Shown here: piece by piece, positions 1-28,555 of the stretch | Layout of the letters: each line of letters starts with the position of its first letter | How positions within the stretch are numbered: position 1 is the first letter of the stretch | Assembly (NCBI RefSeq): GCF_004010195.1 | Contig: NC_057718.1 | Location: forward strand, 56,410,009 to 56,444,694 | Reading direction: 5' to 3' | Length of the DNA stretch: 34,686 bases | From: Chiloscyllium plagiosum | Lineage: Eukaryota | Made by a program: the position numbers and the translations under genes | The notes under the pieces: generated by a model | Told to the model about the DNA's origin: nothing | Seen by the model: only the letters and a program-made list of their open reading frames with translations | Database searches by the model: none

Positions 1-180
1 CCCCACCCTCCTCTAGCTTATCTCTCCATGCTTCAGGCTCTCTGCCTTTATTCCTGATGAAGGGCTTTTGCCCGAAACGTCGATTTTGCCTGTCCTCGGA
101 TGCTGCCTGAATTGCTGTGCTCTTCCAGCACCACTGACCAGAATCTGGTTTCCAGCATCTGCAGTCATTGTTTTTACCTC
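1..180 (+). mobile_element. Penelope-like element 3' terminal repeat (pLTR), family A; extends beyond the left edge
   Basis: Nearly identical to 26113-26250; same family as the tails of the GIY-YIG-encoding copies at 11841-11962 and 16369-16496. Confidence 0.85.
50..85 (+). ncRNA. Minimal type I hammerhead ribozyme motif, intact core
   Basis: CTGATGA(54-60)-A-GGGC-TTTT-GCCC-GAAA-C-GTC(81); ACGT palindrome as stem III; short stem I (tc/ga). Confidence 0.75.
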
Positions 181-442
181 ATTCAGAGAAGGGCCAATAC
201 ATGTCTCTGGGGCTCCAGGCCAGACCACCAATCTGTTATAGACCAGATCAGACGCTCTTAAAATGTTTTATGAAGGGAGCCCAGACCCTAACGTTTTTAA
301 TTTTTTTAAGCAGATGTATGGTGGATATTCCAGGAGTGATGCACCTGGTCAAACCATTGAGCTTTAAACAAAACAGAATTTATTTAAATACTACAGATGA
401 AGCATGAACAAAAGGAACCAGAATTTAGAATAATTTAACTTA

Positions 443-787
443 TTTATAGAGGTGTATAAGATGATTAGGGGTTTAGATAGGGTCGACAGTGAGAATCTTT
501 TTCCACGTATGGAGTCAGCTATTACAAGGGGGCATAGATTTAAATTAAGGGGGGGGGGGGGTTAGGTATAGGACAGATGTTAGGGGTAAGTTCTTTACTC
601 AGTGAGTCGTGAGTTCATGGAATGCCCTGTCAGTAGCAGTGGTGGACTCTCCCTCATTATGGGCATTTAAGCGGGCATTGGATAGGCATATGGAGGATAG
701 TGGGCTAGTGTAGGTTAGGTGGGCTTGGATCGGCGCAACATCGAGGGCCGAAGGGCCTGTACTGCGCTGTATTCTTCTATGTTCTAT
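443..787 (+). mobile_element. CR1 (HER1-like) LINE 3' end, 5'-truncated
   Basis: RT C-terminal IEVYKMIRGLDRVD...TRGH motif; tail gggccgaagggcctgtactgcgctgta-ttctatgttctat; possible TAACTT target-site duplication (436-441/787-792). Confidence 0.85.
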
Positions 788-1171
788 AACTTGTAATGGC
801 TTTAATTCCCTCCCAAGTTGTTGCCTCTGGTGGATTACAAGGATACATCCTTGATCTCATATTCTCATCTACCTGCTGTCTCCATATGACATCACCAGAA
901 AGCAGAGTATTAGTTTTCAAACATATGGTTACAAAACACCCTTCTAATTCATCCTTCTTTGAGCGAGTTGAGATAAAGTTTAAGATCACCAAAGTTGAGT
1001 GAGGAAGGCTGTGAATATAACTTGAAAAGTAATATCCTATGGTATTTGGGTTAGTGGCAGATAGAAGGGACTTAGGAAAAGGGTGGAACAAGATGAAATT
1101 CAAAAAGAAGGAATACATGCCAGTGAATTGGAGCAAACAAGGAGTAATTTACTGCTAAGAGCCACATGATG

Positions 1172-1430
1172 TCTGGACAGAAACATAAATAGCTGGAAAA
1201 TCTCAGCAGGTCTAGCAACATCTGTGGAGAGAAGTCAGAGTTAACGTTTCAGGTCCAGTAACCCTTCTCCAGAGCAGTTCTGAAGAAGGCTCGATTCTGA
1301 AGAAGCGTCACTGAACCTGAAACATTAACTTTGATTTCTCTCCACAGATACTGCCAGATCTGCTGAAATTTCCCAGCTGTTTCTATTTTGGTTTCAGATT
1401 TCCAGTATCCACAGTTCTTTTGGTCTTTTA
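1172..1430. mobile_element. ORF-less inverted pair of Penelope-like pLTRs (family B), each arm with a hammerhead-like core
   Basis: 1172-1272 is the approximate reverse complement of 1297-1400. Cores are CTGGAGA..GAAACGTT (minus, 1241-1272) and CTGAAGA..GAAACATT (plus, 1297-1326). Confidence 0.75.
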
Positions 1431-1724
1431 ATGTCTAGAGAAGGTGGATAGTAGATGGGATGGGCAGACAGAGAGGGTTCATCGCTCCTTAGCCAGGTTT
1501 CTGTCAAAGCCATGGCATTAACTCAATCATCCATAGTAGACTCATTGGTTAAGTGGCAGATTCTGGGTTGGGCCTGGGACTCAGAGTGCATGGTCTGTCA
1601 TTCCGGAAACTAAGTGGGTGCATCCAATGGCACTGGTTGTGGCCTCGGGCACTCTGGGGGGGTTTGTTCTTCATCTGATCAGGCCTTCGTGTTGAGTCTC
1701 CACATGGTCCTTAATGTCTTAGTG

Positions 1725-3350
1725 TCTACCGCCCAGTGGCCCTGACATCCATCATTGTGAAGTGCTTCAGAGTTAGTAATGGCACTCATCAACTCCAGCC
1801 TTCCAGATTGGCTTGATCCGCTACAATTCAACTATCATCACAACAGGTCCACAGCAGACGCGATCTCCCTGGCCCTACACTCATCCCTGGAACACCTGGA
1901 TAACAAGGACACAGCGGCATGGTAACTCAGTGGTTAGCACTGCTGCCTCACAGCACCAAGGACCCAGGTTCGATTCCAGCCTCGGGTGACTGTCTGTGTG
2001 GAGTTTGCACATTCTCCCCGTGTCTGCGTGGGTTTCCTCCGGGTGCTCCGGTTTCCTCCCACAGTCCAAAGATGTGCGGGCCAGGTGAATTGGCCATGCT
2101 AAATTGCCCTTGGTGTTAGATGCATTAGTTGGAGGGAAATGGGTCTGGTTGGGTTACTCTTCGGAGAGTCAGTGTGGACTGGTTGGGCCGAAGGGCCTGT
2201 TTCCACACTGTAGGGAATCTAATCTGTAGGGAATCTAGTCTAATCTGAAATATCAGACTCCTATTAATTTATTTTAGCTCTGTCTTCAACACCATAATTC
2301 CAACAAAACTTATCACTAATCTCTGTGACCTAGGACTCTGCTTCCCCCTCTGCAACTGGATCCTTGACTCCCTGACCTGCAGACCACGATCTCTAAGGAT
2401 GGTTAAAAACACCACCTCCACAATAAAGCTCAACACTGGTGCCCCATAAGGCTGTGTACTCAGCCCCTTACTATACTCCTTATGCACTCGCAACTTTGTG
2501 GCCAAATTCAGCTCTAACTCCATTTACAAATTTGCTGATGACACCACTGCAGTGGGTCGGATCTCAAACGATGATGAGACAGAGTTCACAAAGGAGATAT
2601 ACAGCTTAGGGCATTGTGTAAAGACAACAATATTGCCTTCAATGTCAGAAAAACGAAAGAGCTGGTCATCAACTTCAAGAAACAGTGTGGAGGATACAAT
2701 CCTGTCTGTATCAACGGTGCGGAGGTGTAGGTGCTTGGGAGCTTCAATTCCTAAAAGTAAATATCAATGATCTATCCTGGTCCATCCAAGTCAATGCTAC
2801 AGCCAAGAAAGTACACCAATGCCTCTACATCCTCAGAAGGCTAAGGAAATTTGGCATGTCCACAATGATTCTTACCAAATTTTATAGATGCACTATGGAA
2901 AGTATCCTATCAGGATGCATTACAGCTTGGTATAGTAAATCTCTACCCAAGCCAGTAAGAAATTAGTGTTGTGAAAGCAGCCCAGCACATCACAAAAGCC
3001 AGCCTTCCTTCCATTGACTCTGCCTACACTTCCCGCTGTCTCCAAAAAGCAGTCAACATAATCGAAGACCCCTTCCACCTTGGTTATACTCTCTTCTACC
3101 TTCTTTCATTGGACAGAAGATGCAAGTTTGAAAACACAGTTTCTTCCTGCTTTTATCAGACTTATGAATTGACCTCTCACTTATTAGAGTTGATCTTTCT
3201 CTGCACCTTCTCTGTAACACTATATTCTGCATTATGTTCTACTACCCTAATGAACTTATGTAAGGTATGATTTGTCTGGTTAGCATACAACACCATACGT
3301 TTTACTATCTCAGTACATGTGATAGCAATAAATCAAACCAAAATCAAACC
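1725..3350 (+). mobile_element. Rex1/Babar-type LINE, 5'-truncated and frameshifted RT region plus 3' tail; interrupted by a SINE
   Basis: [52 protein letters not shown]...FYRCTMESILSGCITAWY; aataaatcaaaccaaaatcaaa tail. Confidence 0.85.
1914..2246 (+). mobile_element. tRNA-derived V-SINE (HE1-like), full length
   Basis: A box TAACTCAGTGG; B box GGTTCGATTCC (1967-1977); V-domain tctccccgtgtctgcgtgggtttcctccgggtgctccggtttcctccca; CR1-like tail ending in (aatct)n. Confidence 0.9.
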
Positions 3351-4820: not shown

Positions 4821-4928
4821 AATCCCTACAGTGTGGAAGTAAGCCATTCGGCCCATCGATCCAGACTGACCCTCTGAAGAACATCCCATCCAGACCCACC
4901 CTATCCCCGTAACCCTGCATTTCTCATG
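4821..4928 (-). mobile_element. HE1-like SINE 3' fragment
   Basis: Reverse complement of the SINE tail (gggccgaatggcttacttccacactgtagggatt). Confidence 0.75.
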
Positions 4929-6707: not shown

Positions 6708-6868
6708 CAAGAAATGCTCCAATATGTTGAGTGATACCTCCTGCTTCCATAGTAGCAACCTGGGTTTTCCTCAAACAGTCAAGTAACGTTGTTTTTCCAT
6801 GATCAACATGACCCATTATAGTAACCACTGGTGACCTGGGAACCAACATAACTGGATCTGAAGGTGGC
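6708..6868 (-). CDS. MTIF2: MTIF2 coding exon 4 (161 nt; [53 protein letters not shown]), start of the tr-type GTPase domain
   Basis: IF2 G1 P-loop GHVDHGKT and G2 GGITQHIGA; acceptor tttctcttttag|G (phase 2); donor CTT G|gtatgt (phase 1). Confidence 0.97.
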
Positions 6869-7044
6869 CTAAAAGAGAAATACATAATGAATTTCCCTTG
6901 GAAGGAAATGAAATCTCATGTTTCGTTAACCAATTTCTCAGCAGTTCTCATTCTGAAAAAATATCTTGAAAAATGAGAACATTCAATATTTTTCCCTCTG
7001 GTATAGGGCACAGACTTCCAGAAAGAATGATGATTTAGGTCACA

Positions 7045-7182
7045 CTCTGAAAGGGAGTTGCATTGGGCTTGAAATGTTAACTCTATTTCTTTTGTCATGG
7101 GCACTACCAGAACCATGGAGTTATTCCAGCATTTTTTTTTTATTTCTGATTTTCAGCATTTGCAGTTTTTTACTTTTAATTT
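7045..7182 (+). mobile_element. Strongly decayed solo Penelope pLTR (family B)
   Basis: Aligns by eye to 28427-28555 (ctga...gaaatgttaactct...ccagca...cagcatttgcagtt); hammerhead core degraded. Confidence 0.55.
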
Positions 7183-7660
7183 AGTTTGTAAATGGCAATG
7201 GAATACAGTTTGACTGCTGCTGATCGTTTGCAGCAACTTAGAACACTGAGTTTCTTGAAGCATTCCTTGTTCCAAATTAATAACATTTAGCATGGTAGTA
7301 GTACCAGACAACATGATTATGAGTGCCCTCAGTGTGAAGACAGGACTTTTGTTTTCAAAGAGACCTCATGGTAGCCACTTTTTACCATTACTGTCATGGA
7401 TAATATATTTGTGGCAGGCGGACTGGTCAAGACAGGATTAAATGGCTTTTCCCTTTGTTCGTTCTCTTGTCATTTGCCACAGGCTAAGTCTGGCAATTAT
7501 GTCATTCAGATCTCAGTGAACTCTGCATTCGTAGTGCTAACAAGTCACTCTGTGAGGGAGACCGATGGCCCTCAAATAAAGTACATTCTGTGTTATTTCA
7601 TATCTTCAGTGTTTCTCCCACCTGATCTTCATCATAGAGTGGGACTGCTTCTCCACCTGT

Positions 7661-8420
7661 GTGAAAGTTGAAAATCACACACCAGGTTATAGTCCAACAG
7701 GTTTATTTGGAAGCACTAGCTTACACAAACACATACACCCTCCACATCCCCTTTCACAGGCTTACACTCCATCACATTTACACATACACTTTTTCAAGCT
7801 TGCACACATGCAAACACACACTCTCTCACATGCACTCACATTCACATGCACACACTCACTGTCTCTCTTGCACTGCACACATATAAGTCTGTGGGGTGAA
7901 TTTGTATTTGCATATACATTCTATTTTGCTAAAAAAATGCACAATCTGCAGGCAGTCAATGCAGGGAGTGAATCCAATGTAACATTTTGTAAATCCCACT
8001 TTGGAAACAGCATCAGTCTGACTCAAAATTGGGATATAGACAGACTTTAACCTCACACCTTTAATGCATTGTCTTAGCTGAAATGTCACCTTTTTTTTAT
8101 AAAACCTTAAGTTATATCAAGAATGTGACATAAAAGAAGTTCTGGGATTTAGATATTAATAAACCGAAACCTGCAACCCATTCTAAAAGATGAAAGTGTT
8201 AACAACAATCTAGGTTTGTTCAATATATCATTTCAGTTGAACGACACTGTAATCTTTTGTTATAAATTCTGTGTTGTATGGCCTTGCTCGACAACTACCT
8301 GATGAAGGAGCAGTGCTCCAAAAGCTAGTGCTTTCAAATAAACCTGTTGGACAATAACCTGGTGTTGCATGATTTTTTTTAACCTCATCCACCCCAGTCC
8401 AACACTGGCTCCTCCACATA
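7661..8420 (+). mobile_element. Penelope-like element (family C): long 3' non-coding region with terminal repeat and an inverted partial terminal repeat at the 5' end
   Basis: 7661-7722 is the reverse complement of about 8322-8390 (aagctagtgctt.caaataaacctgttggac.ataacctggtgt); CA-rich tract 7723-7880; hammerhead-like core at 8299-8327. Confidence 0.7.
8296..8330 (+). ncRNA. Hammerhead-like motif with G12->A change (probably inactive)
   Basis: tac-CTGATGA-A-GGAGC-AGT-GCTCC-aAAA-GCTA-gtg; stem III palindrome AGCT; stem I tac/gtg. Confidence 0.55.
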
Positions 8421-8429
8421 CATGAATGT

Positions 8430-8800
8430 TGTATGTGGTAATCAGTAGGAAGCTTCTTTATCTTTGTTTGACCTAATTCCATGAGGATTGTATGATCTGA
8501 AATTAATGTTAAGAAGTACCAGGACCATTCCTGTCCGACCACTATGCTGGAATTGTTTGTCTTACCCAATGGAACAGGAACTCACACAGATGGCAATGTT
8601 GGAACCTGAGACATTGGCAGCAATGCATAATTCAGTTAATATGTATATGTCAGACTGTTGCTTAACTAGTTTGTGGGACAATATCCCATTACTTGGCCAA
8701 GAATTCAGATATTACTGAGAAGGAGTTTGTAGGATCAAGTGGGTCAGGTTCATTGCATCTGGTGCCTAGGCTGATGCTTGGTGGTCCTTCCAGCCTTATC
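8430..8800 (-). mobile_element. Degenerate LINE fragment (endonuclease region), same family as 20985-23220
   Basis: Similarity to 22950-23200 (e.g. tagtttgtgggaca...cc.attac); no intact ORF. Confidence 0.5.
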
Positions 8801-8966
8801 TGTATTAAATATTCCGAATGTGGTTAGATTTAATTTGCACAGAATAGATAGATGAAATGTTTCAATACAGCATGATTTTTTTCTGTGTAAATATATTGAT
8901 ATTTTACCAAGATATTAAGCATAACCATTCTAGTCTGATTATATGCAAATTAAACACATAACCTAC

Positions 8967-9138
8967 CTCCTCACCGCATCTTTATTTTCTTTCACTTTTT
9001 CTTCTGCAAGTTTTGCCCACTTAAATTTCATTCCAGATTTCTTTATAACCTCTTTAATCCATTTTTCATCTAAGAGCAAATCCTGTTCAATGGAGTCTAT
9101 GTCAATATTTGTGTGGAGTAGAGCCTCAAATACATGAT
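8967..9138 (-). CDS. MTIF2: MTIF2 coding exon 3 (172 nt; [58 protein letters not shown])
   Basis: Acceptor ttctgaatatag|AT (phase 1); donor AGG AG|gtaggt (phase 2). Strong resemblance to vertebrate MTIF2 (EALL.T.IDIDS...WIKEVI.K.GMK.KW...NKDAVRR). Confidence 0.95.
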
Positions 9139-10759
9139 CTATATTCAGAAAGAAATTATGACGTGAATATGTAACAGTAAGTGTAGAAAGAACAATGTCT
9201 TTTGGAAGAAGTAAGGCCACTTACCATATGGATTGATGTGGAAATTCAGAGTCCAATAGCAATCAGCTGTATATCAGTAGGATTTTAATTTGGGGTGACA
9301 TTGCCTAATTCATGGAAAGATTGCAGCAGATATGATCAAGGGTCAGAGGAGGTCGAGGTAAATTATTTAATTCTGCTTAAATGGTTTCCTTTTAGCCGGG
9401 AGAAAGAGGAATGTTCCTCTGGGTGTCTCAACCCCAGACTCCTCACCAACAATTGTTGTCATGTCAAAAGCTATCTTTAAGTAAATTGCGAGGAAATGTT
9501 TCCTAAAGTCTAAAGCAGTGGGACTGCAGCTGAAGGTATTACCACATCAGCACAACAGAATTTCAAATTAGGGCGAAGTTTAGAATTTCTAGGGCCTTAC
9601 CTAAATAGCTTCGCTGGGTTAAAAGAAACAGTTGATGGCTCGTACAAGACTAATTAGTGGCCAAAAAGTCTGACTGCACTAATAACAGAAGAGGGTTGGA
9701 GAGGAGGAGAGAGGAATCTTTGAGAGATTCTCAAGCTGAACATCCATTTTATCAATTGTAAACAGACCTATAGCAATAAAAGCAATACAATACTTTACAG
9801 CAAAACGCAGCACAATATCATTCCTCCTCAAAAAAAATGACACAAAATAAAATAAAACTGCATTCGGGATAGAGTTGTTTGATAATATTTATGGTGCCTT
9901 CTGCTTCACTGATAATTGTAGAAGGTGCTTAAAGCATACCTGTGGTGTCTGTTAACATCTGACCAGGAACAAAGTACATCAAAATATGCACACTTTATTA
10001 CTTCTTTCCCAGAGTCAAATTAGTAAGAAATGTATCCTAACAGAACATTACAAGGCTCCGTTTGAAATAAAGCCATCAGATAAACAAAATTAGACATAAG
10101 TTAATAGCAGCTGAACACTTTACTGACTTATACACCAGTGTTATATTTGCATCATTCAGACTGAGTAATTTGTCTTTATGAACCTGACTTTAACCCTGAA
10201 AGCATTGTAATGAAACAACAAATATATTAAAATTGGGGTAAATACTGTGTTTTGTCACTCATGCATCATTCTGTCCAAGAATAGTTAATCCATGGTGCTA
10301 TAAAACTGAATTCTAGGAGCTGCATAATCTATGATTTACTTGACTTACCTGTTTAACATTTGTTTGAAGTTTGTCAAAGTTATAATTAGCACATACTGTT
10401 TCCACTCTGTGCTTTCTATTTACTAAATAGGTCGACATATAGAAATTTATAACCTCAACCTCAGTTCCTCTGGGCTATCCGCAACAGTATAAAATCCCAA
10501 ACAATTGCAAGTACTACTTCAGAGAAAGTAACTGAAATCTGAAGAACTGTCAGCAACATCACAAGACTAAGCTGGCATAAGCATTCAGAAATTTCGACAG
10601 GCCAGGGATTTGTAAAATACTTGAGATGGTAGAAATGACTCAATGATTTCACAAAACACTGAACAAGAGTGACTCCTTACTGGCTTTGTTCCAATACATT
10701 CCATAAGCATATTATATTTAGTGTTTTGGCGGGTTTAACTACGTTTACTATATACTTAC

Positions 10760-10871
10760 CTATATCTTTATCCATTGCTTCTGCAAGTTCAGTGACAGTC
10801 ATCTTTTGCTTTATCTCCACTTCTTTTTTCACTTGCTTTTGCTTCTTTGGAGCAATCTTACACTTATCTTG
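10760..10871 (-). CDS. MTIF2: MTIF2 coding exon 2 (112 nt; QDKCKIAPKKQKQVKKEVEIKQKMTVTELAEAMDKDI)
   Basis: Acceptor ctctcattcaag|CAA; donor ATA G|gtaagt (phase 1). VEI..MTVTELAEAM is the IF2 N-terminal motif. Confidence 0.9.
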
Positions 10872-11444
10872 CTTGAATGAGAGAAACAGGAATTTACAAA
10901 AGAATAAATTTGTAAAAGTATGTACACACAATAAACCGGAGGATATCAATACTGCACTGGAGAGTCAGCCCCTCCATTTGATTATGGTTTCAAGTCTGGA
11001 AAATGAAAAATTACATCCTCAGCATGAGATAACTTCAAAAGAGGACAGAATATTTTAAAAATCAAGAATGTTTTGACTTGCCACCACCAAAATATAATAA
11101 CCATTGATGGCTGTGTTTTATATTTAAAACTATTGTCTCCGTGAGTAACTTTAAATATGAATGGAACCATTTATTGCTAATACTTTTGAGACCAAGCTGC
11201 AATCTAGTTATTTTGGGTCGTTCTGCTGTAACATATTTTGTTAACATGATTGATGACTTGGGAACATTGTTTCTAAAGTGCGAACTTTTAAAGTGTGTAT
11301 TAGTTATTATGCGATTCCAGCCCCATTAGATTAAATGGTGCTGCTATTACACGATTTTCTTATAAAGCAGCATTGCACAAGAATGGAACTACCATGTTAT
11401 CGCAGAACTGACATTACTTCAATACAATACCGAGAGTACACATA

Positions 11445-11840: not shown

Positions 11841-11931
11841 GGGAGAAAGTGAGAACTGCAGATGCTGGAGATCAGAGTTGAAAGGTGCTGGAAAACCACA
11901 GCAGGTCAGGCAATATCTGAGAACCAGGACA

Positions 11932-11964
11932 GTCAACATTTCGGGCATAAGCCCTTCATCAGGG

Positions 11965-11965: not shown

Positions 11966-11966
<1 letters not shown>

Positions 11967-12024: not shown

Positions 12025-14784
12025 ATGGCGGAGGTTGAGAGATAAATAGGAGGATAGGAGGGTGAGGGCAAGCTAGCTGGGAAGGTGATAGGTCAGTGCA
12101 GGTGGGGGTTGATTGTGATAGGTCAGTGGGGAGGGTGGAGCATATAGGTGGGAAAGGAAGATGGACAGGTAGGACAGGTCAAGAGGTAGTGCTGAGTTGG
12201 AGAGTTGGATGTGGGATGAGGTGGGGGAGGGGAGAGAAGATTTGGAAACTAGTGAAGTTGAGGTCGACGACGTGTGGTTAAAGGGTCCCAAGGCGAAAAA
12301 TGAGGCATTGTTCCACCAGTCATCGGGTGGCTTGGATTTGGTGGTGGAGGCAACCCAGGACTTGCACGTGCTTGGCGGAGTTGTAGTGGTCGGCCACAGA
12401 GCAGTGGGGTTGTTTGGTGCATGTGTCCAAGAGATGTTCCCTGAAACATTCCATGAGTTAGTGACCTGTCTCCCCAATGTGTAGACGATCACATCGAGAG
12501 CAATGGACACAGTAGATGAGATGTTTGGACGTACAGAAAATCTCTGCCAGATGTGAAAAGATTCTTTGAGACCTTGGATGGAGGTGAAGGGGGAGGTGTG
12601 GGCACAGGTTTTACATCTCTTGCTGGGGCAAGAGAAGGTGTCGGATGTGTAGGGTGGGTTCATGAGCGGGGTGTGGACCTAACAAGGGAGTCAAGGAGGG
12701 AATGGTTCTTGTGGAATGCAGATAAGGGTGGGGTCTAATTGTAAGTGGCGGAAATAGCAGAGGATAATGCGCTGTATCCATTACTGAGGGGGGTGAGGAA
12801 GTGTAATCCAGATAGCTGTGGGAGCCAGTGGGTTTTAAATAGATGTCCATGTTGAGTCAGTTGCCAGAGACAGAGAGGTCCAGCAAAGGGAGGGAGGTGT
12901 CCATAATGGTTGAGGTGAAATTAAGGTCAGGGTGGAAGGTGTTAGTGAAGTTGATGAACTGTTCAACCACCGCTTGGAAACGAGGTGGGGCTGATAGTTG
13001 AGGATAATGCACTGCGTATGGAAATTGGTGAGGTGGAAGGTGAGGACAGGGAGTTCTATCCTTGTTGTGGTTGGAGGGGGTACTGTTCAAGGGCGGAGGT
13101 GCAGCAAGTGGAGGAGATGTGTTGCAGGGCATTGTTGATCATCTGGGAGGGGAAATTGCGGTCCTTGAAATAACAGACCATCTGGGATTTCTTCAAGTGG
13201 AATTGCTCCTGGTGGGAGCAGATACAGTGAAGGCAGAGGAATTCGGAGTAAGGGATAACATTTTTATTGGTGGGGGTGTAGTCCAGGTAGCTGTGGGAGT
13301 CGATGGGTTTTAAATAGATGTCAGTGTTGAGTCGGTCGCCAGAGACAGAGAGGTCCAGGAAAGGGATGGCGTTGTCTGTAATGGTCCAGGTGAAATTAAG
13401 GTCAGGGTGGAATGTGTTAGTGAAGTTCATGAACTGTTCAACCACGAGGTGGAGCCGATACAATCATCAATGTAGTGGAGGAAAAGGCAGGGGATGGTGC
13501 CAGTGTAACTGTGGAACATCGACTGTTTCACATATTCTATGAAAAGGCAGGCATAGCTGGGGCCTATGTGGGTGCCATTACCCCTTTGGTCTGAAGGAAG
13601 TGGGAGGATTTGAAGGAGAAGTTGTTGAGGATGAAGACAAGTTCCGCCAATCGAATGAGTGCATTAGTGGAGGAGTACTGGTTGGGTCAGAGGGAAAGGA
13701 AGAAACGGATGCCTTCCCCATGGCGGATGGACATGTATAGGGACTGGATGTCCATGATGAAGATGAGGCATTGGAGGCTGGGGAAACAAAATCAGGGAGA
13801 AGGTGAAGGACGTGGGTGGTGTCTTGAATGCACCTGGGGAGTTCCTGGACCAAGGGGGACAGGGCAGTGTCGCGATATGAGGATATATGTTTGGTGGGAC
13901 AGGAGCAGGCAGAAATGATAGGTCGACCAGGGCAGTCAGGTTTGTGGATTTTGGGTAAGAGGTCGGACCGAGTGGTGTGGGGTTGCAGAACTATGAGGAT
14001 CGAGGCTGTAGATGGGAGCTCCCCTGAGGCGATGAGGATGTGGATGGTCTAGAAGATGATGGTTTGGTGATGGGACATAAGGTCGTGATCAAGGAGGCGG
14101 TAGGAGGAGGTCTATTCACATGATGGTTCCTGGCTTCAGTGGTGTAGAGGTCGGTGTGCCGAACTACCAGTATGCTCCGCCTTATCCGCTGATTTAATAG
14201 TGATGTTGAGTGGAGGGAAGGGAGGGCTGTACTTTGTGAGGAGGAGTGGTTAGAGTGGATGAGAGGGGTGGACAGGTTGAGGTGGTCAGTATCACAGTAG
14301 GAGCCAGGGGTAAAGAGGTTGAGGGCAGGTAAGTGTCTCTAGTACTAAATAGAACATCAACCCTAATATCATGCAGCTTTGTTGATTTTCCAACCATTAA
14401 TTTTCATCTGCACCTTTCATATATTTGATTCTAATTTTGTGTTCATCCTTACACTCTTCAATCTCCCTTTCTTTGCAAGAAGTATATATATTGGTTATTA
14501 TTTCTGAAGCCTGTACTCTGCATACAAGAGCCTTTTTTAAACTGCAAAGTTAAATAGGGAAGATGTCAGCTTTTAATATCCCAACATCCCTGAATATTAC
14601 AAAAGGGGAAACATACAAGGCAGATAAGAAATAAATATACAAAATGTCAACTGAGACGATTCATTTGAATAAGAGCATTAAAAAGTAAAGAGAATTAGTA
14701 GGCAATTTGGCCCTTCAAATCTCTTCTCCCTACAATCTTTGTCTTTTGTTCCCTGTATGTAAAGGTGCGGGATCTGCAAGAAAA

Positions 14785-15404: not shown

Positions 15405-16496
15405 CATTCCCTCCCCACTCCTATCTGCACTCCGCAGAGACCATTCCCAGTGACTCCCTTGTTAGGTCCACATCCTCTACGAACCCACTCTCCTCCTTCC
15501 CTTGCCCCTGCAAGAGGTGTAAAACCTGCATCCAAGGCCTCACGGATCTTTTCACATCCAGCAGAGATTTCCTGCACATTCACCCACCTCATCTACTGTG
15601 TCCATTGACTCGATACAGCCTCCTCTTCCTCGGGGAGACAGGACACCAACTCGTGGAGAGTTTCAGGGAACATCTCTGGGACACGCACCAAACAACTCCA
15701 CTGCACTATGGTCGATCACTTCAATTCTCCCACCCACTCCCCCAAGGACACATAAGTCTTAGGCCTCCTCCACTGCCAAATCCAAACCACCCAATAACTG
15801 CAGGAAGAACGCCTCTTCTGCCTCAGAACCCTTCAACCACACAGCATTAATGTCAAATTCACTAGTTTCCAAATCTCCCCTCATCCCAGATCCAACCCTC
15901 CAACTCGGCACTGCCCTCTTGACCTGTCCATCTTCCTCCCCACGGCACGGTGGCTCAGTGGTTAGCACTGTAGCCTCACAGCACCAGGGACCCGGGTTCA
16001 ATTCCAGCCTTGGGTGACTGCCTGTGTGGAGATTGCACATTCTCCCCGTGTCTGCGTGGGTTTCCTCCGGGTGCTCCGGTTTCCTCCCACAGTCCACAGA
16101 TGTGCAGGTTAGATGAATTAGCCATGCTAAGTTGCCCGTAGTGTTAGGTGCATTAGCCAGAGGGAAATGGGTCCGGGTGGATTACTCTTTGGAGGGTCGG
16201 TGTGGCCTTGTTGGGCCAAAGGGCCTGTTTCCACACTGTAGGGAATCTAATCTAAACCTGTCACAATTACCAGCCACCTACATCTACATTTCACCTTCCC
16301 ACCTAACTTCCCCCAGCCCCAAACCCACCCCCAGATTTATCTCTTACCCCCCTTCCCCCTCCACATTGCTGATGAAGGGCTTATGTCCAAAACATTGACT
16401 CTCCTGCTCCTCGGATGTTGCCTATCCTGTTGTGCTTTTCCAGTGCCACCCCTTTCAACTCTGACTCTCCAGCATGTGCAGTCCTCACTTTCTCCT
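15405..16496 (+). mobile_element. Penelope-like element (family A) 3' part: GIY-YIG region plus pLTR with decayed hammerhead (16369-16396); interrupted by a SINE
   Basis: CPCKRCKTC, LGETGHQLVESFREHLWDT; homologous to 11841-12730 in the opposite orientation. Confidence 0.85.
15942..16255 (+). mobile_element. tRNA-derived V-SINE (HE1-like), full length
   Basis: A box TGGCTCAGTGG, B box GGTTCAATTCC, V-domain, (aatct)n tail; highly similar to 1914-2246. Confidence 0.9.
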
Positions 16497-16499: not shown

Positions 16500-17600
16500 A
16501 ATCACTGCACTCAGCTTCTTCATCTAAACACTTCTAAAGATTTCAAACTGACAAATCCAATCATTTATCTTTGTTGTAATCCTGCCAATTGAATTCTCAC
16601 TCTTTTTTTTGTCCTTTTATCTATCTTTAAACTATGGTATTATGTAATCTCAATCTCATGAGGTTTAATGTTTCGTAAAATCCTTACGAAGTACTGTATT
16701 AAATATTTGCTCAAAATGCCAATGCACTATTTCCTTCCTATTTACTTGACAGCCTCAAAAGGTTGAAATTTGTAAAATATAATTTCCTTTAAAAAATGTG
16801 CCATGAGTTTGTCTGATCTTATTCTGATAATTCTAAATGTCATTTCCTTATTCACCATTATAATTTATCTAGTTTCTGTTTCTAACGAACCCACGTACCT
16901 TCCACTTCTTAAAACTTTTACAAACCTCCTCGTTTACTATCAATTTCGAAACCCTTACTGGATTTTAAAATCCTCCAAATCTTTGACTTACTTCTCTTAT
17001 CAGTAATCAGCCTATTTTCTCAATTTATACCCTGACTTGTTCAGACACAAGACCCTAGTGTCACACTCAAACAACTCTCAAAATCAACAATACAGCTGTG
17101 CATGACTATTCTTCCCTAAAGGTCCCTTTACTGAACAGTTATTAATGAAACCTTTTTCATCACACAATTCAAGATCTGAAATTTCCTGTTGTTTGGTTCC
17201 TCCCAATATTAAAAAAAGAACAATTTGTATGCTATGACTTCATCTCCTAAATTATTAGTGCCAATTTGTTTTGCAGAGTCCATATGAAAATTAAATTTCT
17301 GTGAATACTGTTTTACCCTTGCTATACACATTTTTAATGTTCTGAAATTTACTCTGCCCAACATTACAGCCACTTTTAGAAGACTTTTAAACTATGCCTA
17401 CCAGTGTTTTCTGCCAATTGGTGTTTCTTAGCTCCACCCAAGCTGATTTTACATCTTGATGTTCCAAGATAAAATCTTTTCTCTGCACTGCCGTTATTCC
17501 ATTTTTCTTACTTGGGGCCTCCTTTTCCATTTTGCTTATCAAGTTTCACACTACTTACTTATCAACTTTGGTCATTCTGCAATCATTTCTCTGTAATGAA
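16500..17600 (-). mobile_element. Very degenerate CR1-like LINE ORF2 remnants
   Basis: Scattered antisense CR1-like phrases (e.g. cttagctccacccaagctgattttacatc); no ORF. Confidence 0.4.
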
Positions 17601-18601
17601 TAGCAATCTGTGGTTGATTTAAGCAAAATAGGATTTCTGATTAATTTGTTAAGCACTGTAGCTCTCACTAGTGTAGCTCCGACAGTTCCAAGATATAATC
17701 ACTCTGATTTTCTCTGACATGCATGTAGTACCAAACCTTTCAGCCTAGTGGTTGCTCACCTTCCTAATATAACAATAATGAGTTCTAGATTGTTTCATGC
17801 CAACTTGGTAAACTTCATGTTATTGTGTGCTTCATCTGTGTTCTTTGCACAGATAGAAGAGATCAACTATATATGAGTTATCTACAGAGATAGTTGAATT
17901 AGTACGGAAATACAATTAATTTGCAATGCTACCACTTGCATAGTTATATGGATGTTCTCCCACTGCAATGTAATTTAGTCATAACTGAAGTATAACTTAC
18001 AATTCCTAACTCCTCACTACGTAACTAACTGGAAAATGGAATTTTGATCAAATTAATTGGATCAACTGCAAAATGAATTAGATTTTTTGCACTTGAGTGG
18101 GAAGCAGAAAATATTTATTATTTCATTGATTTCAGAAAATGTAAATTAGCATAGATGCCTACAACTACCACTCAATCTCCTAACAAAAAAAAATCACCAA
18201 TATTTCATGTGTTTCTACACATATGTATATTTGCACACCACACAATACTACATACTTCGACCTCGCCCTGCTGCAGCAATCCTGCTATTGAAACACTCAA
18301 CTCTAGCTTTGTCTCCTCTAGACTTGACTATTGCAATCTTCACTAGATTGATTGGAGACTAAATAGAATGGACCAATATTCTCTGGCATTTATAAAAGAG
18401 TAAAATGTAATCATAATTGTATAGAGTGAATATATGGTTGGAAATTAAATTTAATATAGTCCAGATCCCACAATTTAAAAAATAAAACTTAACAGCATCT
18501 GAAAACAAAGCTAGAATTAACCAGTTCAATCATCTTATTTTCATGGTAGTAAGTCAGAGTCAAACTATCACTTGACCAAAAACTATAATAAACCACCTTA
18601 C

Positions 18602-18799
18602 CCTTTTAGTTGCTAAAAGCCTATTAAGTGGCAGGTTGAATTTGTTGATGCTCCCAGGTAACCAGCTTTGCCCCCAGGTAACCAGACTTGAGCGTAGCTG
18701 CAGATCATGAGTATCTCTCCATCTCAGAGTATGAATCTCATGGAGACACTGCTTCCACGTTGCAGGCTTCAGTCTGAACAACAAACGTCTTATCATCAT
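18602..18799 (-). CDS. MTIF2: MTIF2 first coding exon (66 codons, MMIRRLLFRLKPATW...NRLLATKR); probable mitochondrial presequence. Exon starts at 18805 with 6 nt of 5'UTR
   Basis: Acceptor tttgcag|TTGGTG ATG at 18806/18805; donor AGG|gtaagg at 18602/18601 (phase 0). The N-terminus is Arg/Leu-rich and acid-poor. RLLATKR resembles RLLVTKK in mammalian MTIF2 as I recall it. Phase matches the next exon. Confidence 0.85.
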
Positions 18800-19949
18800 C
18801 ACCAACTGCAAATAATTTTTTTTTATTAAAAATCATTAAGACTGTCGATATTGACAATGTTTTAAAAGGATATTCATAAAATGTTTATGTCATTTGTTTT
18901 AAAGTACTTTGGGGGTACACTGAAGAAATCAAAGGTACATCAAAGCAAGCATTCTTGTTCAATAACGCTACATTTTACATTAAACAACGTACCAGAACTG
19001 TTACTATCATATTTTTAAAATATGTGCATTCAAATTGTTAATTTAATAGATAAACGTAATGGTTAAGGCACAAAACCTTCACCTCTAAACACCACAATAA
19101 TCCCAGGATTGATATCTGGTCTGGACAGATCTACCAAATCTCTGCTTGTTCACTTCAAGATGAAATTCAGCTAACAAGTGTGCAAGGAAAGAGGAATGAA
19201 AGCATATAGGAACTAAGTCGTGGAATTAAGATGACTTCTAATGTGAAACAGGAGTGTGTTCTGGTTTCTCCTGCCAGGATCTGCCACCCTGCTTACATTG
19301 CACTCTCAGTTGTGACCCAGAAAATAGATCAACTTAAATGTTAACGTTTCAACGATTAACTCTTATTACATTTCAAAGCACCACAACCCTTTGTGAAAAG
19401 AGTTTCTTCTATTTTCTATTTTAAATATCTTGCATTTAAGTGTATTTTCCCCAATATTTGAAAATCCTCAATTACTGAAATATTCTATTTCAATCTTTTC
19501 TGTCCCATATTATATTTTAAAGACCTTCAAGTCTTTTCAATCCCCCAACAAAGACAGCTTCAACATTTCAAGTGTTTCTACATATGTGTACCATTGGATA
19601 CCATAATACCATTTGGCTTCATAACATCAACAGACCTTGCCCTGCTGCAGCAATTCTACTGCCAAAACACTCAATTCTCTATGTTAATTTCCACTAGACT
19701 TGATTATTGCAATCTTTATCCAATTGACTTGAGAAAAGAAGGCTATCAATGAGAGCAGATGAATAGAATGGGACAATATTCTCTGGCATTTATAAGTGTG
19801 AGACATAATCATGGTAGCATAGAGTGGATCGGTCATTGGAAGTTAACCTCAGGGTCAAAAACATTACAAAGGTTGCAAACATACTGGTTCAGCTACAGTC
19901 AGGAAGAAAGATCAGTGGCTAGGGAGCAAACTTCATGGTGCAAATTATG

Positions 19950-24223: not shown

Positions 24224-24310
24224 GAGATAGTGCGGACTGCAAATGCTGATGAAGGCTCCTTGGATGCTGCCTGACTTGCTGTGCTTTTTCCACCGCCACA
24301 CTTTATCGAC
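24224..24310. mobile_element. 87-bp Penelope family A pLTR-derived mini-insertion with a perfect 15-bp target-site duplication
   Basis: TACGAATTTAATCAG at 24209-24223 and 24311-24325; the insert is an inverted pLTR tip fused to an internally deleted sense pLTR. Confidence 0.8.
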
Positions 24311-24359
24311 TACGAATTTAATCAGTTTTTTTTGGGGATATATGAAAGATACTACTATA

Positions 24360-24427
24360 AGATTTCACTTCTATTAATTTGGGAAGTGAATTAGATTTCA
24401 CTTCTATTAATTTGGGAAGTGAATTAG
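24360..24427. repeat. Perfect tandem duplication, 33-bp unit x2
   Basis: agatttcacttctattaatttgggaagtgaatt at 24360-24392 and 24393-24425. Confidence 0.95.
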
Positions 24428-24947: not shown

Positions 24948-25304
24948 GTGAAGATTTGCTATTGCAAGGTTTGTAGCTCAGGTTGAGGTTTAGGGTGTAG
25001 GTTTGCTCACTGAACTGTAGGTTTGATATCCAGACGTTTCATTACCTGGCTAGGTAACATCATCAGTGGCAACCTCCAAGTGAAGGGAAGCTGTTATCTC
25101 CTGCTTTCTATTTATATGTTTGTCCTGGATGGGGTTCCTGGGGTTTGTGGTGATGTCATTTCCTGTTCGTTTTCTGAGGGGTTAATAGATGGTATCAAGA
25201 TCTATGTGTTTGTTTATGACGTTGTGGTTGGAGTGCCAGGCCTCTGGGAATTCTCTGGCATGTCTTTGCTTAGCCTGTCCCAGGATAGATGTGTTGTCCC
25301 AGTC
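24948..25304 (-). mobile_element. Penelope-like element (family D, Poseidon-type) 3' end: GIY-YIG C-terminus plus pLTR; cut by the assembly gap
   Basis: DWDNTSILGQAKQRHAREFPEAWHSN..INKHIDLD on the minus strand; homologous to 27565-27878. Confidence 0.85.
25030..25069 (-). ncRNA. Minimal type I hammerhead ribozyme motif, nearly intact
   Basis: Minus strand cca-CTGATGA-T-GTTACCT-AGCC-AGGTAAT-GAAA-C-GTC-tgg; stem I cca/tgg; 7-bp stem II (first pair G-U); ACGT palindrome. Confidence 0.75.
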
Positions 25305-25759
25305 NNNNNNNNNNNNNNNNNNNNNNNNNNNNNNNNNNNNNNNNNNNNNNNNNNNNNNNNNNNNNNNNNNNNNNNNNNNNNNNNNNNNNNNNNNNNNNNN
25401 NNNNNNNNNNNNNNNNNNNNNNNNNNNNNNNNNNNNNNNNNNNNNNNNNNNNNNNNNNNNNNNNNNNNNNNNNNNNNNNNNNNNNNNNNNNNNNNNNNNN
25501 NNNNNNNNNNNNNNNNNNNNNNNNNNNNNNNNNNNNNNNNNNNNNNNNNNNNNNNNNNNNNNNNNNNNNNNNNNNNNNNNNNNNNNNNNNNNNNNNNNNN
25601 NNNNNNNNNNNNNNNNNNNNNNNNNNNNNNNNNNNNNNNNNNNNNNNNNNNNNNNNNNNNNNNNNNNNNNNNNNNNNNNNNNNNNNNNNNNNNNNNNNNN
25701 NNNNNNNNNNNNNNNNNNNNNNNNNNNNNNNNNNNNNNNNNNNNNNNNNNNNNNNNNNN
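25305..25759. other. Assembly gap (N run)
   Basis: Run of n characters; ORFs spanning it are artefacts. Confidence 1.
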
Positions 25760-26250
25760 AGGAGGCCCAGGACCTCCATGTCCTCGGCAGAGTGGGAGGG
25801 GGAGTTGAAATGTTGGGCCACAGGGCAGTGTGGTTGATTGGTGCGGGTGGCCCGGAGATGTTCCCTAAAGCGCTCTGCTAGGAGGCGTCCAGTCTCCCCA
25901 ATGTAGAGGAGACCGCATCGGAAGCAACGGATACAATAAATGATATTGGTGAATGTGCAGGTAAAACTTTGATGGATGTGGAAGGGTCCTTTAAGGCCTA
26001 GTTCTAAACTTTCAGCTCAGCACTGTCCCCATGACTTGTCCTACCTGCCTATTTTCTTTTCCACCTATCCACTCCACCCTCCTCCCTGACCTATCACCTT
26101 CATCTCCTCCCCCCCCCACCCTCCTCTAGCTTATCTCTCCACCCTTCAGGCTCTCTGCCTTTATTCCTGATGAAGGGCTTTTGCCCGAAACGTCGATTTT
26201 ACTGCTCCTCGGATGCTGCCTGAACTGCTGTACTCTTCCGGCACCACTAA
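25760..26250. mobile_element. Penelope-like element (family A): minus-strand GIY-YIG fragment (25760-about 25998) abutting a plus-strand pLTR (about 26005-26250)
   Basis: Minus strand FHIHQSFTCTFTNIIYCIRCFRCGLLYIGETGRLLAERFREHL; inverted arrangement typical of Penelope insertions. Confidence 0.85.
26163..26198 (+). ncRNA. Minimal type I hammerhead ribozyme motif, intact core (identical to 50-85)
   Basis: CTGATGA(26167-26173)-A-GGGC-TTTT-GCCC-GAAA-C-GTC(26194). Confidence 0.75.
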
Positions 26251-26316
26251 TCTAAAACACAGTAATTAGTCATGCATAAACCCCTTTATAATGTAATCAT
26301 TGATTTTTTTTTAATA

Positions 26317-26595
26317 TTAGATTGGATTCCCTACAATATGGAAACAGGCTCTTCGGCCCAACAAGTTCACACCGACCCTCTGAAATGTAACCCACGCAGA
26401 CCCATTCCCCTACCCTATATTTACCCCTGACTAATGCACCTATCACTATGGGCAATTTAGCATCGCCTATTCACGTAACCTGCACATCTTTGGATTGTGG
26501 GAGGAAACCCACACAGACATGGGGAGAATGTGCAAATTCCACATTGACAGTCACCCGAGGCGCTGTGAGGCAGCAGTGCTAACCACTGAGCTACC
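26317..26595 (-). mobile_element. HE1-like V-SINE with internal deletions
   Basis: Reverse complement of ggtagctcagtggttagcactgctgcctcacagcgcc...tgtagggaatccaatctaa. Confidence 0.85.
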
Positions 26596-26934
26596 TAATA
26601 ACTGTCAATGTCTTTGACATTGCAAATTAACTGTGAACAATTATAAGTATATGACCAGATTTTCTAAGGAATGGCAGCCTCATGCAAATTGCCACTCCAT
26701 CTCTTCTTTTACGAAAGGCGAGAACTCTGCATTTCTGACAGGAAATTCTGATCAGGGTTCCTTCAGAAATGTGGAGCTATAATTCAATTCTAACAGTTCT
26801 TTGATAGGGGGCAAACCACAATCCCTACTCACAGCAGTTGTCCTGTATTCTGGAATTTTATGGTCCCAAATCAAAGAGAGTTACTTTGACAGCTGCTAAC
26901 AAATGGCAAGTACATAAAATTGTCAGCGAGTTCT

Positions 26935-27878
26935 CAGATTGAGGTTGAGGTTCTGAATGTCGGTTTGCTCGTTGACCTGGAAGGTTTATTTTCAGATGTT
27001 TCATCACCATACTGGGTAACATCTTCAGAGAGCCTCTGAATGAAGCACTGGTGGTGTAGCCCGCTTTCTATTTGTTTGGGTTTCCTTGGGTCGGTGATGT
27101 CATTTCCTATGGTGATGTCATTTCCTGTTCTTTTTCCTCAGGGGATGATAAATAGGATCCAAGTGAATACCTATACAGTGTATTCAAAAATAATGGGTAC
27201 CATATGAACACAGTCCACTGATTTTCTCAGCAACAAACCCAAACAAGTAGACAAAACACATCCAGAAACTGAAGCCACTCTCCCCTACATCAATGACATC
27301 TCGGAAATGACTGCCAGACTACTCAGACCCCTTGGCATCATGGTAGCCCACAAACCCACCAACAAACTAAAGCAGCAGTTAATGAACTTGAAAGACCCTT
27401 TCCAGACAACAAGCAAAACTAATGTCATTTACAAAATACCTTGCAAGATCTGAAACAGGCAGAAAACTAGCCACCAGGATAGATGAACATCAACTAGCCA
27501 CAAAAAGACATGACCCACTTTCACTAGTATTCTTACATACGGATGAGGAAGGACACCACTTCAACTGGGACAACACGCCCATCCTAAGACAAACCAAACA
27601 GAGACACGCACGAGAATTCCTAGAAGCATGGCATTCGAACTGAAACTCTATCAACAAACACATTGACTTGGATCCTATTTACCATCCCTTGAGAAGAAGA
27701 ACAGGAAATGACGTCACCACTAAAAATGACATCACCAACCCGAGGAAACTCAAACATATAAATAGAAAGTGGGCTACACCACCAGTGCTTCATCCAGAGG
27801 CTCGCTGAAGATGTTACCTAGTATGTTGATGAAATGTCTGAAAACAAACCTTCCAGCTCAGTGAGCAAACCTACATCC
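26935..27878 (+). mobile_element. Penelope-like element (family D): inverted 3' copy (26935-about 27168) followed by a sense 5'-truncated copy (about 27169-27878); two hammerhead-like cores
   Basis: ETGRKLATRIDEHQLATKRHDPLSLV...FNWDNTPIL..TKQRHAREFLEAWHSN (GIY-YIG). Cores CTGAAGA-T-GTTACC..GAAACATC (minus, 26995-27028) and CTGAAGA-T-GTTACC..GAAATGTC (plus, 27805-27838). Confidence 0.85.
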
Positions 27879-27889
27879 GTAAAATTTTA

Positions 27890-28160
27890 AGGTCAGGGTA
27901 CCAGGAGGATGGGAGGGGGGTAGGGTGCCATGTAAGTAAAGTGTCAGGTGATTGAGTACCAGTTTAGAAGGGTTCCAGTTGGGGAAGGTGCAAATATGTT
28001 AGACAAATAGGGTGCCAGATGGGTAGAGTGTCAGATAAGTAGGGCGCCAGTTAGATAGGTTAACAGCTAGGTTGGGGGTAGGGTGCCAGTGACTGTGTAC
28101 CAAGTGTTTAGAGTGCTAGGAAGCAAGATGACATGGGGACCAGGTAAATGATGAAGGTTT
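27890..28160. repeat. Degenerate G-rich minisatellite (core about ggtagggtgccag)
   Basis: Repeated agggtaccag/agggtgccag/agagtgtcag/agggcgccag at roughly 14-16 bp spacing. Confidence 0.6.
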
Positions 28161-28425
28161 TAGGGTAGGTCTGGGTTGGTGAGAGAAATTTGTTCAGTTA
28201 AACAGGACACATTAGGGATGCCAGGATGCGTAATGTGTTACAGCTGCAGTATGTGTGAGTTTCTGGATGTCAGTCTGATCAGGGCAAATGCAATTGCAGT
28301 AAATGAAGTTTGAGTAAGTTCAGCTCAGAGTTCATGAGCTGTTGATGAGTTGCTTATAAGTTTAAAAAACTGTTTAAAAGCTTTATATTGTACTATTTTC
28401 CATGAGGAAACCATATGCCAAACAG

Positions 28426-28555
28426 GTTCTGAAGGAGGGTCACTGGACCTGAAACGTTAACTGTTTCTTCCACAGATGCTGCTAGATCTACTGAGTTCTC
28501 CAAGCAATTTAAGTTTTTGTTTCAGATTTACAGCATCTGCGATGCTTTATTTTAT
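28426..28555 (+). mobile_element. Solo Penelope pLTR (family B) with hammerhead-like core
   Basis: gtt-CTGAAGG-AG-GGTC-ACTG-GACC-T-GAAA-C-GTT-aac; aligns with both arms of 1172-1430. Confidence 0.7.

What the first reader, a model, noticed from the sequence alone, without database searches (positions are those of the whole stretch)
50..28461. About a dozen minimal hammerhead-ribozyme cores from four Penelope-like families, with family-specific covarying stems
Seen: a CUGANGA-(extra nt)-stem II-GAAA-NNUH layout recurs at 54(+), 1241(-), 1297(+), 7047(+, decayed), 8299(+), 11935(-), 16369(+), 24246(half), 25033(-), 26167(+), 26995(-), 27805(+) and 28429(+). The families share the core but use unrelated stem II sequences that still pair: GGGC/GCCC, GGTC/GACC, GGAGC/GCTCC, GTTACCT/AGGTAAT. 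Stem I also differs (tc/ga, gtt/aac, tac/gtg, cca/tgg), and stem III is a loopless palindrome (ACGT or AGCT). All readable copies carry an extra nucleotide after A9. Established: Penelope-like elements carry minimal type I hammerheads in their terminal repeats, thought to cleave as dimers (Cervera & De la Pena 2014). Inference: these are self-cleaving RNA processing signals of shark Penelope families. The copies at 54, 26167 and 25033 are the best candidates for activity; most other copies show CpG-type decay. The concept is known; whether these particular families have been characterised I cannot tell.
Basis: partly seen in the sequence, partly recalled or inferred. Interest (0 to 1): 0.72.

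Follow-up and report, generated by a model that had tools for sequence, protein, structure and literature searches.

The report
Shark Penelope retrotransposon hammerhead ribozymes
These small RNA-cutting motifs are real but of a known kind: they sit in the end repeats of very abundant Penelope-type jumping genes of a shark-like genome, most copies here are broken, and the genome's copies were likely made from RNA that the ribozyme had not cut.

Summary
Real, and of a known kind; this scan has noted it before on other DNA (121 notes, at least 20 genomes). All 13 sites are copies of hammerhead-bearing terminal repeats of Penelope-like elements (PLEs). Only 4 pass a strict descriptor (C3 at 54+, 25066-, 26167+, 27805+; shuffles give 0.05). 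The site at 24246 is a deletion junction, not a ribozyme. Families A and C link to Neptune-type ORFs and D to a Poseidon-type ORF. B is a relative of A. The window is ordinary for this genome: 13 copies against 9.4 expected, and about 140,000 intact cores extrapolated genome-wide. True covariation is shown within lineage D (helix I C-G/U-A/G-C; helix II U-A/U-G/C-G). In D the extra nucleotide is the U of the ORF's start codon (in frame in 10 of 11 junctions), a layout like that of the lizard element PAc. Break points of family A copies fall about five times more often at the ribozyme's front edge than at its cut site, and the cut site is not clearly above its neighbours. So 'processing signal' is only partly supported: catalysis is conserved, but inserted copies likely come from uncut RNA. 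Cleavage was not tested.

The parts
52..83 (+). Family A (Neptune-type) hammerhead, intact; C3 at 54, predicted cut after C81; helix I only 2 bp; the copy's tail runs to about 179
1177..1273 (-). Family B copy, C3 at 1272, A6>G (core broken); inverted partner of the copy at 1297
1295..1405 (+). Family B copy, C3 at 1297; invariant core present, helix II broken at two pairs, G16.2>A
7047..7157 (+). Heavily decayed family B copy (70% identity over the tail)
7664..7722 (-).
8296..8330 (+). Family C (second Neptune-type lineage) hammerhead, C3 at 8299, G12>A (core broken); the terminal repeat runs from at least 8139 to about 8409
11857..11963 (-). Family A copy, C3 at 11962; core present, a CA-repeat run replaces the 5' strand of helix I; 3' repeat of the decayed ORF at about 12100-14340
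12100..14340 (-). Decayed Neptune-type ORF (reverse transcriptase, thumb, Cys linker, GIY-YIG endonuclease) with stops, frameshifts and an internal duplication
15413..16496 (+). Family A copy with endonuclease remnant, interrupted by another repeat (15943-16253); hammerhead C3 at 16369, G12>A, helix II broken
24225..24310 (+). Family A fold-back stub with an internal deletion through the ribozyme; 15-bp target-site duplication; not a hammerhead
24968..25304 (-). Family D1 (Poseidon-type) copy: endonuclease end, TATA-like box, intact hammerhead (C3 at 25066, predicted cut at 25033, G10.1-U11.1 wobble), AUG formed by A9, the extra U and G10.1
25762..26016 (-). Neptune-type GIY-YIG endonuclease remnant, inverted against the terminal repeat that follows
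   Evidence: (PF01541, E 1.2e-4)
26165..26196 (+). Family A hammerhead, intact; C3 at 26167, predicted cut after C26194; terminal repeat about 26013-26252
26945..27168 (-). Family D4 copy, C3 at 27028; core present, G16.2>A and one helix I pair lost; inverted partner of 27805
27180..27880 (+). Family D4 copy with the C-terminal ORF remnant; hammerhead C3 at 27805 passes the strict descriptor with wobbles and one mismatch; 7-bp duplication around the inverted pair
28426..28534 (+). Family B copy, C3 at 28429, A9>G (core broken)

Best explanation
These are minimal type I hammerhead motifs in the terminal repeats of Neptune- and Poseidon-type Penelope-like retrotransposons, kept intact in the parent elements and decaying in the inserted copies; they likely sit at the very 5' end of the element's RNA and would cut it only with help, while new copies are likely made from uncut RNA. 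Shown: link to the ORFs, conservation and covariation of the fold, the start-codon overlap in the Poseidon family, and break points concentrated at the ribozyme's front edge. Inferred: transcription starts a few bases before C3; the element's protein (or a second ribozyme pairing through the palindromic helix III) activates cleavage about 30-50 bases into the RNA. The cut would take off the capped end and, in the Poseidon family, the start codon. Reverse transcription starts 75-130 bases behind C3 and runs through the uncut site. Because most insertions are short 3' stubs and the ribozyme lies in that stub, the genome fills with passive copies.
For: Full element with a hammerhead at each end and RT, Cys linker and GIY-YIG between (L345; RVT_1 and GIY-YIG hits on sister loci). 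D cores lie about 161 bases behind a Poseidon-type endonuclease and A cores mostly 300-400 behind a Neptune-type one. The C parent has its own ORF (L210, L343). Core positions are invariant across subfamily consensus sequences: 10 of 11 against 23 of 72 tail positions for A/B (Fisher P 3e-4), and 11 of 11 against 50 of 104 for D (P 6e-4). Copies picked by the tail alone still give a hammerhead consensus in 12 of 12 clusters, one of them visible only from helix II onward. In 36 distinct D copies 93.8% of cells pair, and 0 of 500 shuffles reach that; RNAalifold finds the same two helices unaided. AUG is in frame with the ORF in 10 of 11 junctions found among 30 loci. Family A 5' ends: 37 of 105 at -15..+8, 6 at -71..-16, 3 at +9..+27, 5 at +28..+31. 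Genome-wide break points per 1,000 copies: 80 at -1, 13 at +24, 23 at the cut, 16 at +33; after removing indel look-alikes, 80, 10, 16, 16. RNA reads show the same edge: depth rises roughly tenfold about 4 bases before C3. TATA-like boxes lie at -40 (C) and -47 to -53 (D). Parallel with PAc: protein-assisted cleavage, uncut RNA as template, ORF starting at helix II (PMC11167929).
Against: No cleavage was measured. The transcription start is inferred only. Family A has no TATA-like box (0 of 85 A1 copies), and in D the box predicts a start near -25 to -20 while the few ends seen lie at -15 to -2. Three or four of the 37 front-edge ends look like older upstream sequence that my references did not cover. 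Simple 5' ends at the cut site were 9 of 30 loci against 4 of 15 and 3 of 15 at the neighbours, about twofold after scaling, so a small share of copies from cut RNA is not excluded. The scaling rests on 30-42 matches in the sample and is unreliable for fold-back junctions. The covariation counts copies, not events: it amounts to about three changes among four subfamilies, the pair-level measures did not exceed shuffles (490 and 478 of 500), and one helix II pair is an A-G mismatch in D3. The subfamily seeds contained the core, which favours invariance; one search is the check without that bias.
Confidence: 0.6

Rival explanations
1. Processing signal (first reader; Cervera and De la Pena 2014): two ribozymes in a tandem or read-through transcript pair through helix III and cut out unit-length or circular RNA that is the template for copying.
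For: Palindromic loopless helix III in 29 of 30 unselected hits. Two motifs per full element (L345). A same-strand family C pair 355 bp apart exists elsewhere (L179). Dimers of another minimal hammerhead cut weakly in vitro (PMC4209133). Religation after cutting would leave no trace at the cut site.
Against: Copies carry sequence on both sides of the cut, and the cut site shows no clear peak of break points. The predicted helix III duplex is weak, -3.1 to -4.5 kcal/mol. PAc core mutants insert normally in vitro (PMC11167929).
Confidence: 0.25
2. The fold is kept for a non-catalytic job (protein-binding or folding signal, or promoter and start-codon sequence), and cleavage is incidental.
For: It overlaps the inferred start of transcription, and in D the start codon. 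Free folding of the three intact window copies prefers a pairing that involves core bases, by 3.0-3.5 kcal/mol. Family A has only a 2-bp helix I.
Against: What is conserved is the catalytic pattern itself: N7 varies (U, A, G), N17 is C, U or A in the consensus sequences, and the other core bases do not change. In D the paired changes alter amino acids, so coding does not explain them.
Confidence: 0.12
3. Chance matches, or a host-domesticated regulatory cluster in and near the MTIF2 gene.
For: 4 strict cores in the window against 1.4 expected from the genome sample (P 0.05); several copies lie in MTIF2 introns.
Against: Shuffles give 0.05 and reversed controls 0, so not chance. Overall density is ordinary, 13 against 9.4 expected (P 0.15). 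Both copies on the MTIF2 strand that lie within or downstream of its exons (1272, 11962) are crippled.
Confidence: 0.03

Closest known systems
Minimal hammerheads (min-HHR) in pLTRs of metazoan PLEs, including fish Xena, Poseidon and Neptune (Cervera and De la Pena 2014, PMC4209133; parts 1-2 of 4 read, one of two supplementary files searched)
   Same: Type I core, no loop III, palindromic 15.2-16.2, extra base between 9 and 10.1, several consensus families per genome, mostly single copies from truncated elements, inverted pairs 100-700 bp apart.
   Different: Number: about 140,000 strict cores extrapolated here (30 in 739.5 kb) against about 4,000 in coelacanth and 9,000 in Xenopus (different descriptors). 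Shorter helices in A (helix II 4 bp, helix I 2 bp). U11.1 is the majority in the young D1 subfamily. No shark in the text or the file searched.
PAc, Poseidon element of Anolis carolinensis (Frangieh et al. 2024, PMC11167929; passages and second half of the main text read, supplements not seen)
   Same: ORF starts at helix II of the hammerhead, cut shortly behind the start codon (26 bases there, 28 here counting from the A), fixed 3' ends a short way into the ORF, uncut RNA as apparent template.
   Different: PAc was tested in vitro; these were not. Families A-C are Neptune-type; A's ORF starts about 165 bases behind C3 (L345), so its cut would not remove the start codon.
Non-LTR retrozymes (bioRxiv 10.64898/2026.07.22.740005; part 1 of 5 and passages read)
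   Same: Type I hammerheads derived from PLE terminal repeats, reported in one chondrichthyan genome (mean unit 363 bp).
   Different: Retrozymes are tandem arrays with a ribozyme in every unit; the window has no tandem units, only stubs and inverted pairs.

Membership tests
Minimal type I hammerhead of metazoan PLEs | Invariant core CUGANGA ... GAAA ... UH with helices I and II | tested here: met
   4 of 13 window sites; family consensus from tail-selected copies
Minimal type I hammerhead of metazoan PLEs | Extra base between 9 and 10.1; palindromic, loopless helix III | tested here: met
   30 of 30 and 29 of 30 unselected strict hits
Minimal type I hammerhead of metazoan PLEs | G10.1-C11.1 pair | tested here: met
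   G-C in A, C, D2, D3; G-U in D1 and in CpG-decayed copies (20 G-C and 16 G-U of 36 distinct D rows)
Minimal type I hammerhead of metazoan PLEs | Compensatory changes in the helices | tested here: met
   D lineage, two pairs with changes on both sides; A/B helix II variants; few independent events
Minimal type I hammerhead of metazoan PLEs | Position in both terminal repeats of a PLE | tested here: met
   L345 for A; 5' and 3' junctions seen separately for D; only the 3' side for C and B
Hammerhead ribozyme (activity) | Site-specific self-cleavage after N17 | not testable with these tools
   Needs in vitro cleavage or end-specific sequencing
Canonical hammerhead (Rfam models) | Match to an Rfam hammerhead model; stable helix III | tested here: not met
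   No hammerhead family among 5 matches at E up to 10; expected for the minimal form
Neptune-type PLE (families A, B, C) | [quoted passage not shown] | tested here: met
   Linker read in L177, L345, L361 (A), L186 (B, one decayed locus) and L210 (C)
Neptune-type PLE (families A, B, C) | Placement in the Neptune rather than the Nematis clade by RT phylogeny | not tested
   No reference sequences held; Nematis shares the linker. Neptune is assumed because the 2026 preprint found only Neptune and Poseidon in vertebrates
Penelope/Poseidon PLE (family D) | RT plus C-terminal GIY-YIG with CCHH, no Cys linker | tested here: met
   L352, L353, L351; RT 27-29% identical to the A and C RTs
Non-LTR retrozyme | Tandem units each with a hammerhead | tested here: not met
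   Nearest same-strand cores in the window are 624 bp apart and of different families

The most novel reading that the evidence does not exclude
The PLE hammerhead is an off switch, not a release signal: it is the first structure of the transcript, and once the element's protein binds, it cuts off the capped 5' end (and in Poseidon elements the start codon, whose U is the 'extra' nucleotide). This would end translation of that RNA and limit the element's own output, while only uncut RNA is copied. About 140,000 intact cores, many inside host transcripts, would then be latent cut sites that depend on PLE protein.
Probability: 0.25. Interest if true: 0.62.

Novelty: new member of a known kind. 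Interest (0 to 1): 0.27.

Why it matters
The pairing of hammerheads with Penelope-like elements has been known since 2014, so the finding as such is ordinary. What the ribozyme does for the element is still open (PMC8557442 calls it unclear). This genome helps because it holds very many copies: their break points can be counted, and they point to uncut RNA as the template, in line with the single in vitro study. The shark Poseidon subfamilies also give a natural set of compensatory variants, and show that the start-codon overlap is shared from lizard to shark. They are ready material for cleavage tests with and without the element's protein.

Tried and rejected
Rfam scan: no hammerhead match; the mir-788 hit at 1240-1329 is the family B inverted pair. 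Pfam on window fragments: 1 of 8 hit; longer sister loci: 4 of 6 hit. First look for full elements between same-strand cores (L171-L190): none intact, mostly duplicated or inverted stubs and assembly gaps. A weak link of family C to an ORF in L157 was dropped as a separate decayed neighbour; the better link is L210/L343. An apparent pile of family A ends at the cut site (5 of 105, one an internal deletion) was followed genome-wide and did not stand out: 9 of 30 loci there were intact copies with an indel. Family B ends were not used, as the copies are too decayed. RNA: no RNA holder listed for the D copy. Laying one single-cell poly(A) run and contig sets showed no place where many molecules begin or end. 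This says nothing on cleavage: the library is fragmented, reads come from both strands of embedded copies, the species match is by label only, and a second run laid 0 reads. An extended helix I is predicted for D1 and D4 and a distal stem for A1, but these were not consistent across subfamilies, so they are not claimed. Paper searches found no description of these shark families; Repbase/Dfam and subscription papers could not be searched, and the 2026 preprint's supplements were not seen.
Full report
Observation. I read the whole window and scanned it with a hammerhead descriptor. Four cores pass with no mismatch (C3 at 54+, 25066-, 26167+, 27805+) against 0.05 in shuffles. Looser settings add 28429+ and 8299+, but also chance hits (8 seen against 2.4 in shuffles). 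Rfam gives no hammerhead match. Aligning family consensus sequences back to the window places all 13 listed sites and one more partial copy at 7664-7722. Seven keep every invariant core base; three are clean (54, 25066, 26167). Four have lost a core base (1272, 8299, 16369, 28429), one is decayed (7047), and 24246 is a fold-back junction with a deletion. Inverted pairs (1272/1297, 7722/8299, 27028/27805, probably 11962/16369) reduce the sites to about ten insertions.

Setting. The window is G000:C9:56410009-56444694 of a 3.56-Gb genome. An exon at 6712-6870 on the minus strand matches mitochondrial initiation factor 2 (E 1.5e-23). Exact motif counts genome-wide are 17,044 (A), 72 (B), 3,783 (C) and 2,381 (D), with reversed controls at 0; these are single patterns, not family sizes. 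In 77 stretches chosen by round coordinates (739,530 non-N bases) the strict descriptor finds 30 cores and the reversed control none, or about 140,000 genome-wide by extrapolation. Selecting by the tail alone gives 202 copies, so 9.4 are expected in the window against 13 seen (P 0.15). The window is not a special cluster.

Parent elements. Family D cores follow a GIY-YIG endonuclease remnant at about 161 bases; family A cores follow a different one, mostly at 300-400 bases. L345 is a full family A element with hammerheads at 1429 and 4812 and an ORF with RT, a Cys linker and GIY-YIG between, interrupted by an assembly gap and a stop. Sister loci hit Pfam RVT_1 and GIY-YIG (4 of 6 proteins). 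Family C has its own ORF with the same kind of linker, 834 bases before the core in L210. Family B shares its tail with A and follows a related endonuclease in one locus (L186). The RTs of A, C and D are 27-36% identical. By the linker rule in PMC8557442 (passages read), A, B and C are Neptune-type and D is Penelope/Poseidon; Nematis was not excluded.

Selection on the fold. Across seven A/B subfamily consensus sequences, 10 of 11 core positions are invariant against 23 of 72 in the tail; across four D subfamilies, 11 of 11 against 50 of 104. Those seeds contained the core, so I repeated the test with copies chosen by the tail: all 12 clusters with three or more long members give a hammerhead consensus, one of them visible only from helix II onward. 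N7 varies and N17 is C, U or A, as in hammerheads generally (established knowledge). In 45 D copies (10 of 44 D1, and all D2, D3 and D4 held; 36 distinct), the outer helix I pair reads C-G, U-A or G-C and a helix II pair U-A, U-G or C-G. Paired cells are 93.8%, above all 500 shuffles and far above slid controls (31-52%). The pair-count measures did not beat shuffles, and the changes are few independent events. One D3 pair is a mismatch.

Start codon. In family D the extra base is U and forms AUG with A9 and G10.1. The frame from this AUG is open for 23 codons in 37 of 44 D1, 9 of 12 D2, 6 of 11 D4 and 10 of 12 D3 copies. Among 30 loci holding the ORF's N-terminal part, 11 had a recognisable ribozyme in front, and in 10 the AUG position was in frame with the ORF; the other 19 were truncated or too decayed for the pattern. 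The cut would fall 28 bases after the A. PMC11167929 reports a like layout for the lizard element PAc (26 bases), with cleavage only in the presence of the element's protein and no need of cleavage for insertion in vitro.

Where copies begin. Homology among copies ends 75-130 bases behind C3 and begins at variable points upstream. Among 105 usable family A copies (8 of 113 dropped at gaps or edges), 37 begin at -15..+8, 6 at -71..-16, 3 at +9..+27 and 5 at +28..+31. Three or four of the 37 are probably missed upstream homology, and one of the 5 is a deletion. Family C: 7 of 31 at -14..+1, none at -70..-15. To test the small pile at the cut I counted genome-wide break points at four offsets, using patterns that require non-consensus letters upstream: 1,422 at -1, 474 at +24, 281 at the cut, 322 at +33. 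Scaled, these are 80, 13, 23 and 16 per 1,000 copies, and 80, 10, 16, 16 after removing intact copies with indels (0 of 15, 3 of 15, 9 of 30, 0 of 15 loci). Many are fold-back junctions, for which the scaling is rough. Simple ends alone are about twofold higher at the cut than beside it, on small numbers. In RNA reads laid on the 26167 copy, depth rises roughly tenfold just before C3, with 277 loose ends at 26163, and is flat across the cut; these reads come from embedded copies on both strands, so they confirm the DNA edge and say nothing on cleavage. TATA-like boxes lie at -40 in C and -47 to -53 in D, but not in A; a TATA and initiator in a pLTR are reported for a rotifer element (PMC3846280, passages read).

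Mechanism. Shown: the motif is a conserved, covarying part of PLE terminal repeats; inserted copies decay; copies span the cut site and start mostly at the ribozyme's front edge. Inferred: the RNA starts there, cleavage needs protein or a partner, and it trims the 5' end rather than producing the template. The dimer-processing model remains possible, since religation would hide the cut.

Comparison and verdict. Cervera and De la Pena (PMC4209133) describe every structural trait seen here, including fish Neptune and Poseidon elements; a 2026 preprint reports PLE-derived hammerhead repeats in one chondrichthyan. My searches found no account of these families, but repeat databases were not available. 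The scan's own notes hold 121 similar findings; I had seen the front-edge starts, and the notes led me to test them and supplied the uncut-RNA reading. New member of a known kind; interest 0.27.

Noticed in passing
window 6712-18810, minus strand: Exons of the mitochondrial translation initiation factor 2 gene (6712-6870 confirmed; 8960-9120, 10760-10870 and 18590-18800 look like further exons); several hammerhead copies lie in its introns.
   Followed up: partly
window 1915-2225, 15943-16253, 26317-26595, 4823-4898: A dispersed repeat of about 310 bases, 70-89% identical between copies, SINE-like by recall; one copy interrupts a PLE terminal repeat.
   Followed up: no
window 31139-32458 and 32459-33881: Direct duplication of about 1.3 kb (83-88% identity) in a decayed LINE-like element; a further related copy follows at 34057-34506.
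   Followed up: no
window 29037-29460, plus strand: Neptune-type RT thumb remnant without its terminal repeat.
   Followed up: partly
window 24357-24425: Short tandem duplication of about 33 bases just after the 24246 stub.
   Followed up: no
L179:4842 and 5197 (minus), 5535 (plus): Two same-strand family C hammerheads 355 bp apart, close to the 363-bp mean retrozyme unit reported for a chondrichthyan; a natural candidate for a cis dimer.
   Followed up: no
L251, L256, L259, L269, L276: Several family A copies share one extra G right at the predicted cut site and similar tails, which suggests a small subfamily that spread with a changed cleavage site.
   Followed up: no
family D1, window 25033-25066: The youngest Poseidon subfamily has G10.1-U11.1 as its majority state, not the usual G-C pair.
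   Followed up: partly
window 25305-25759: An assembly gap of 455 N separates the family D copy from the Neptune endonuclease remnant, so their nesting cannot be read.
   Followed up: no
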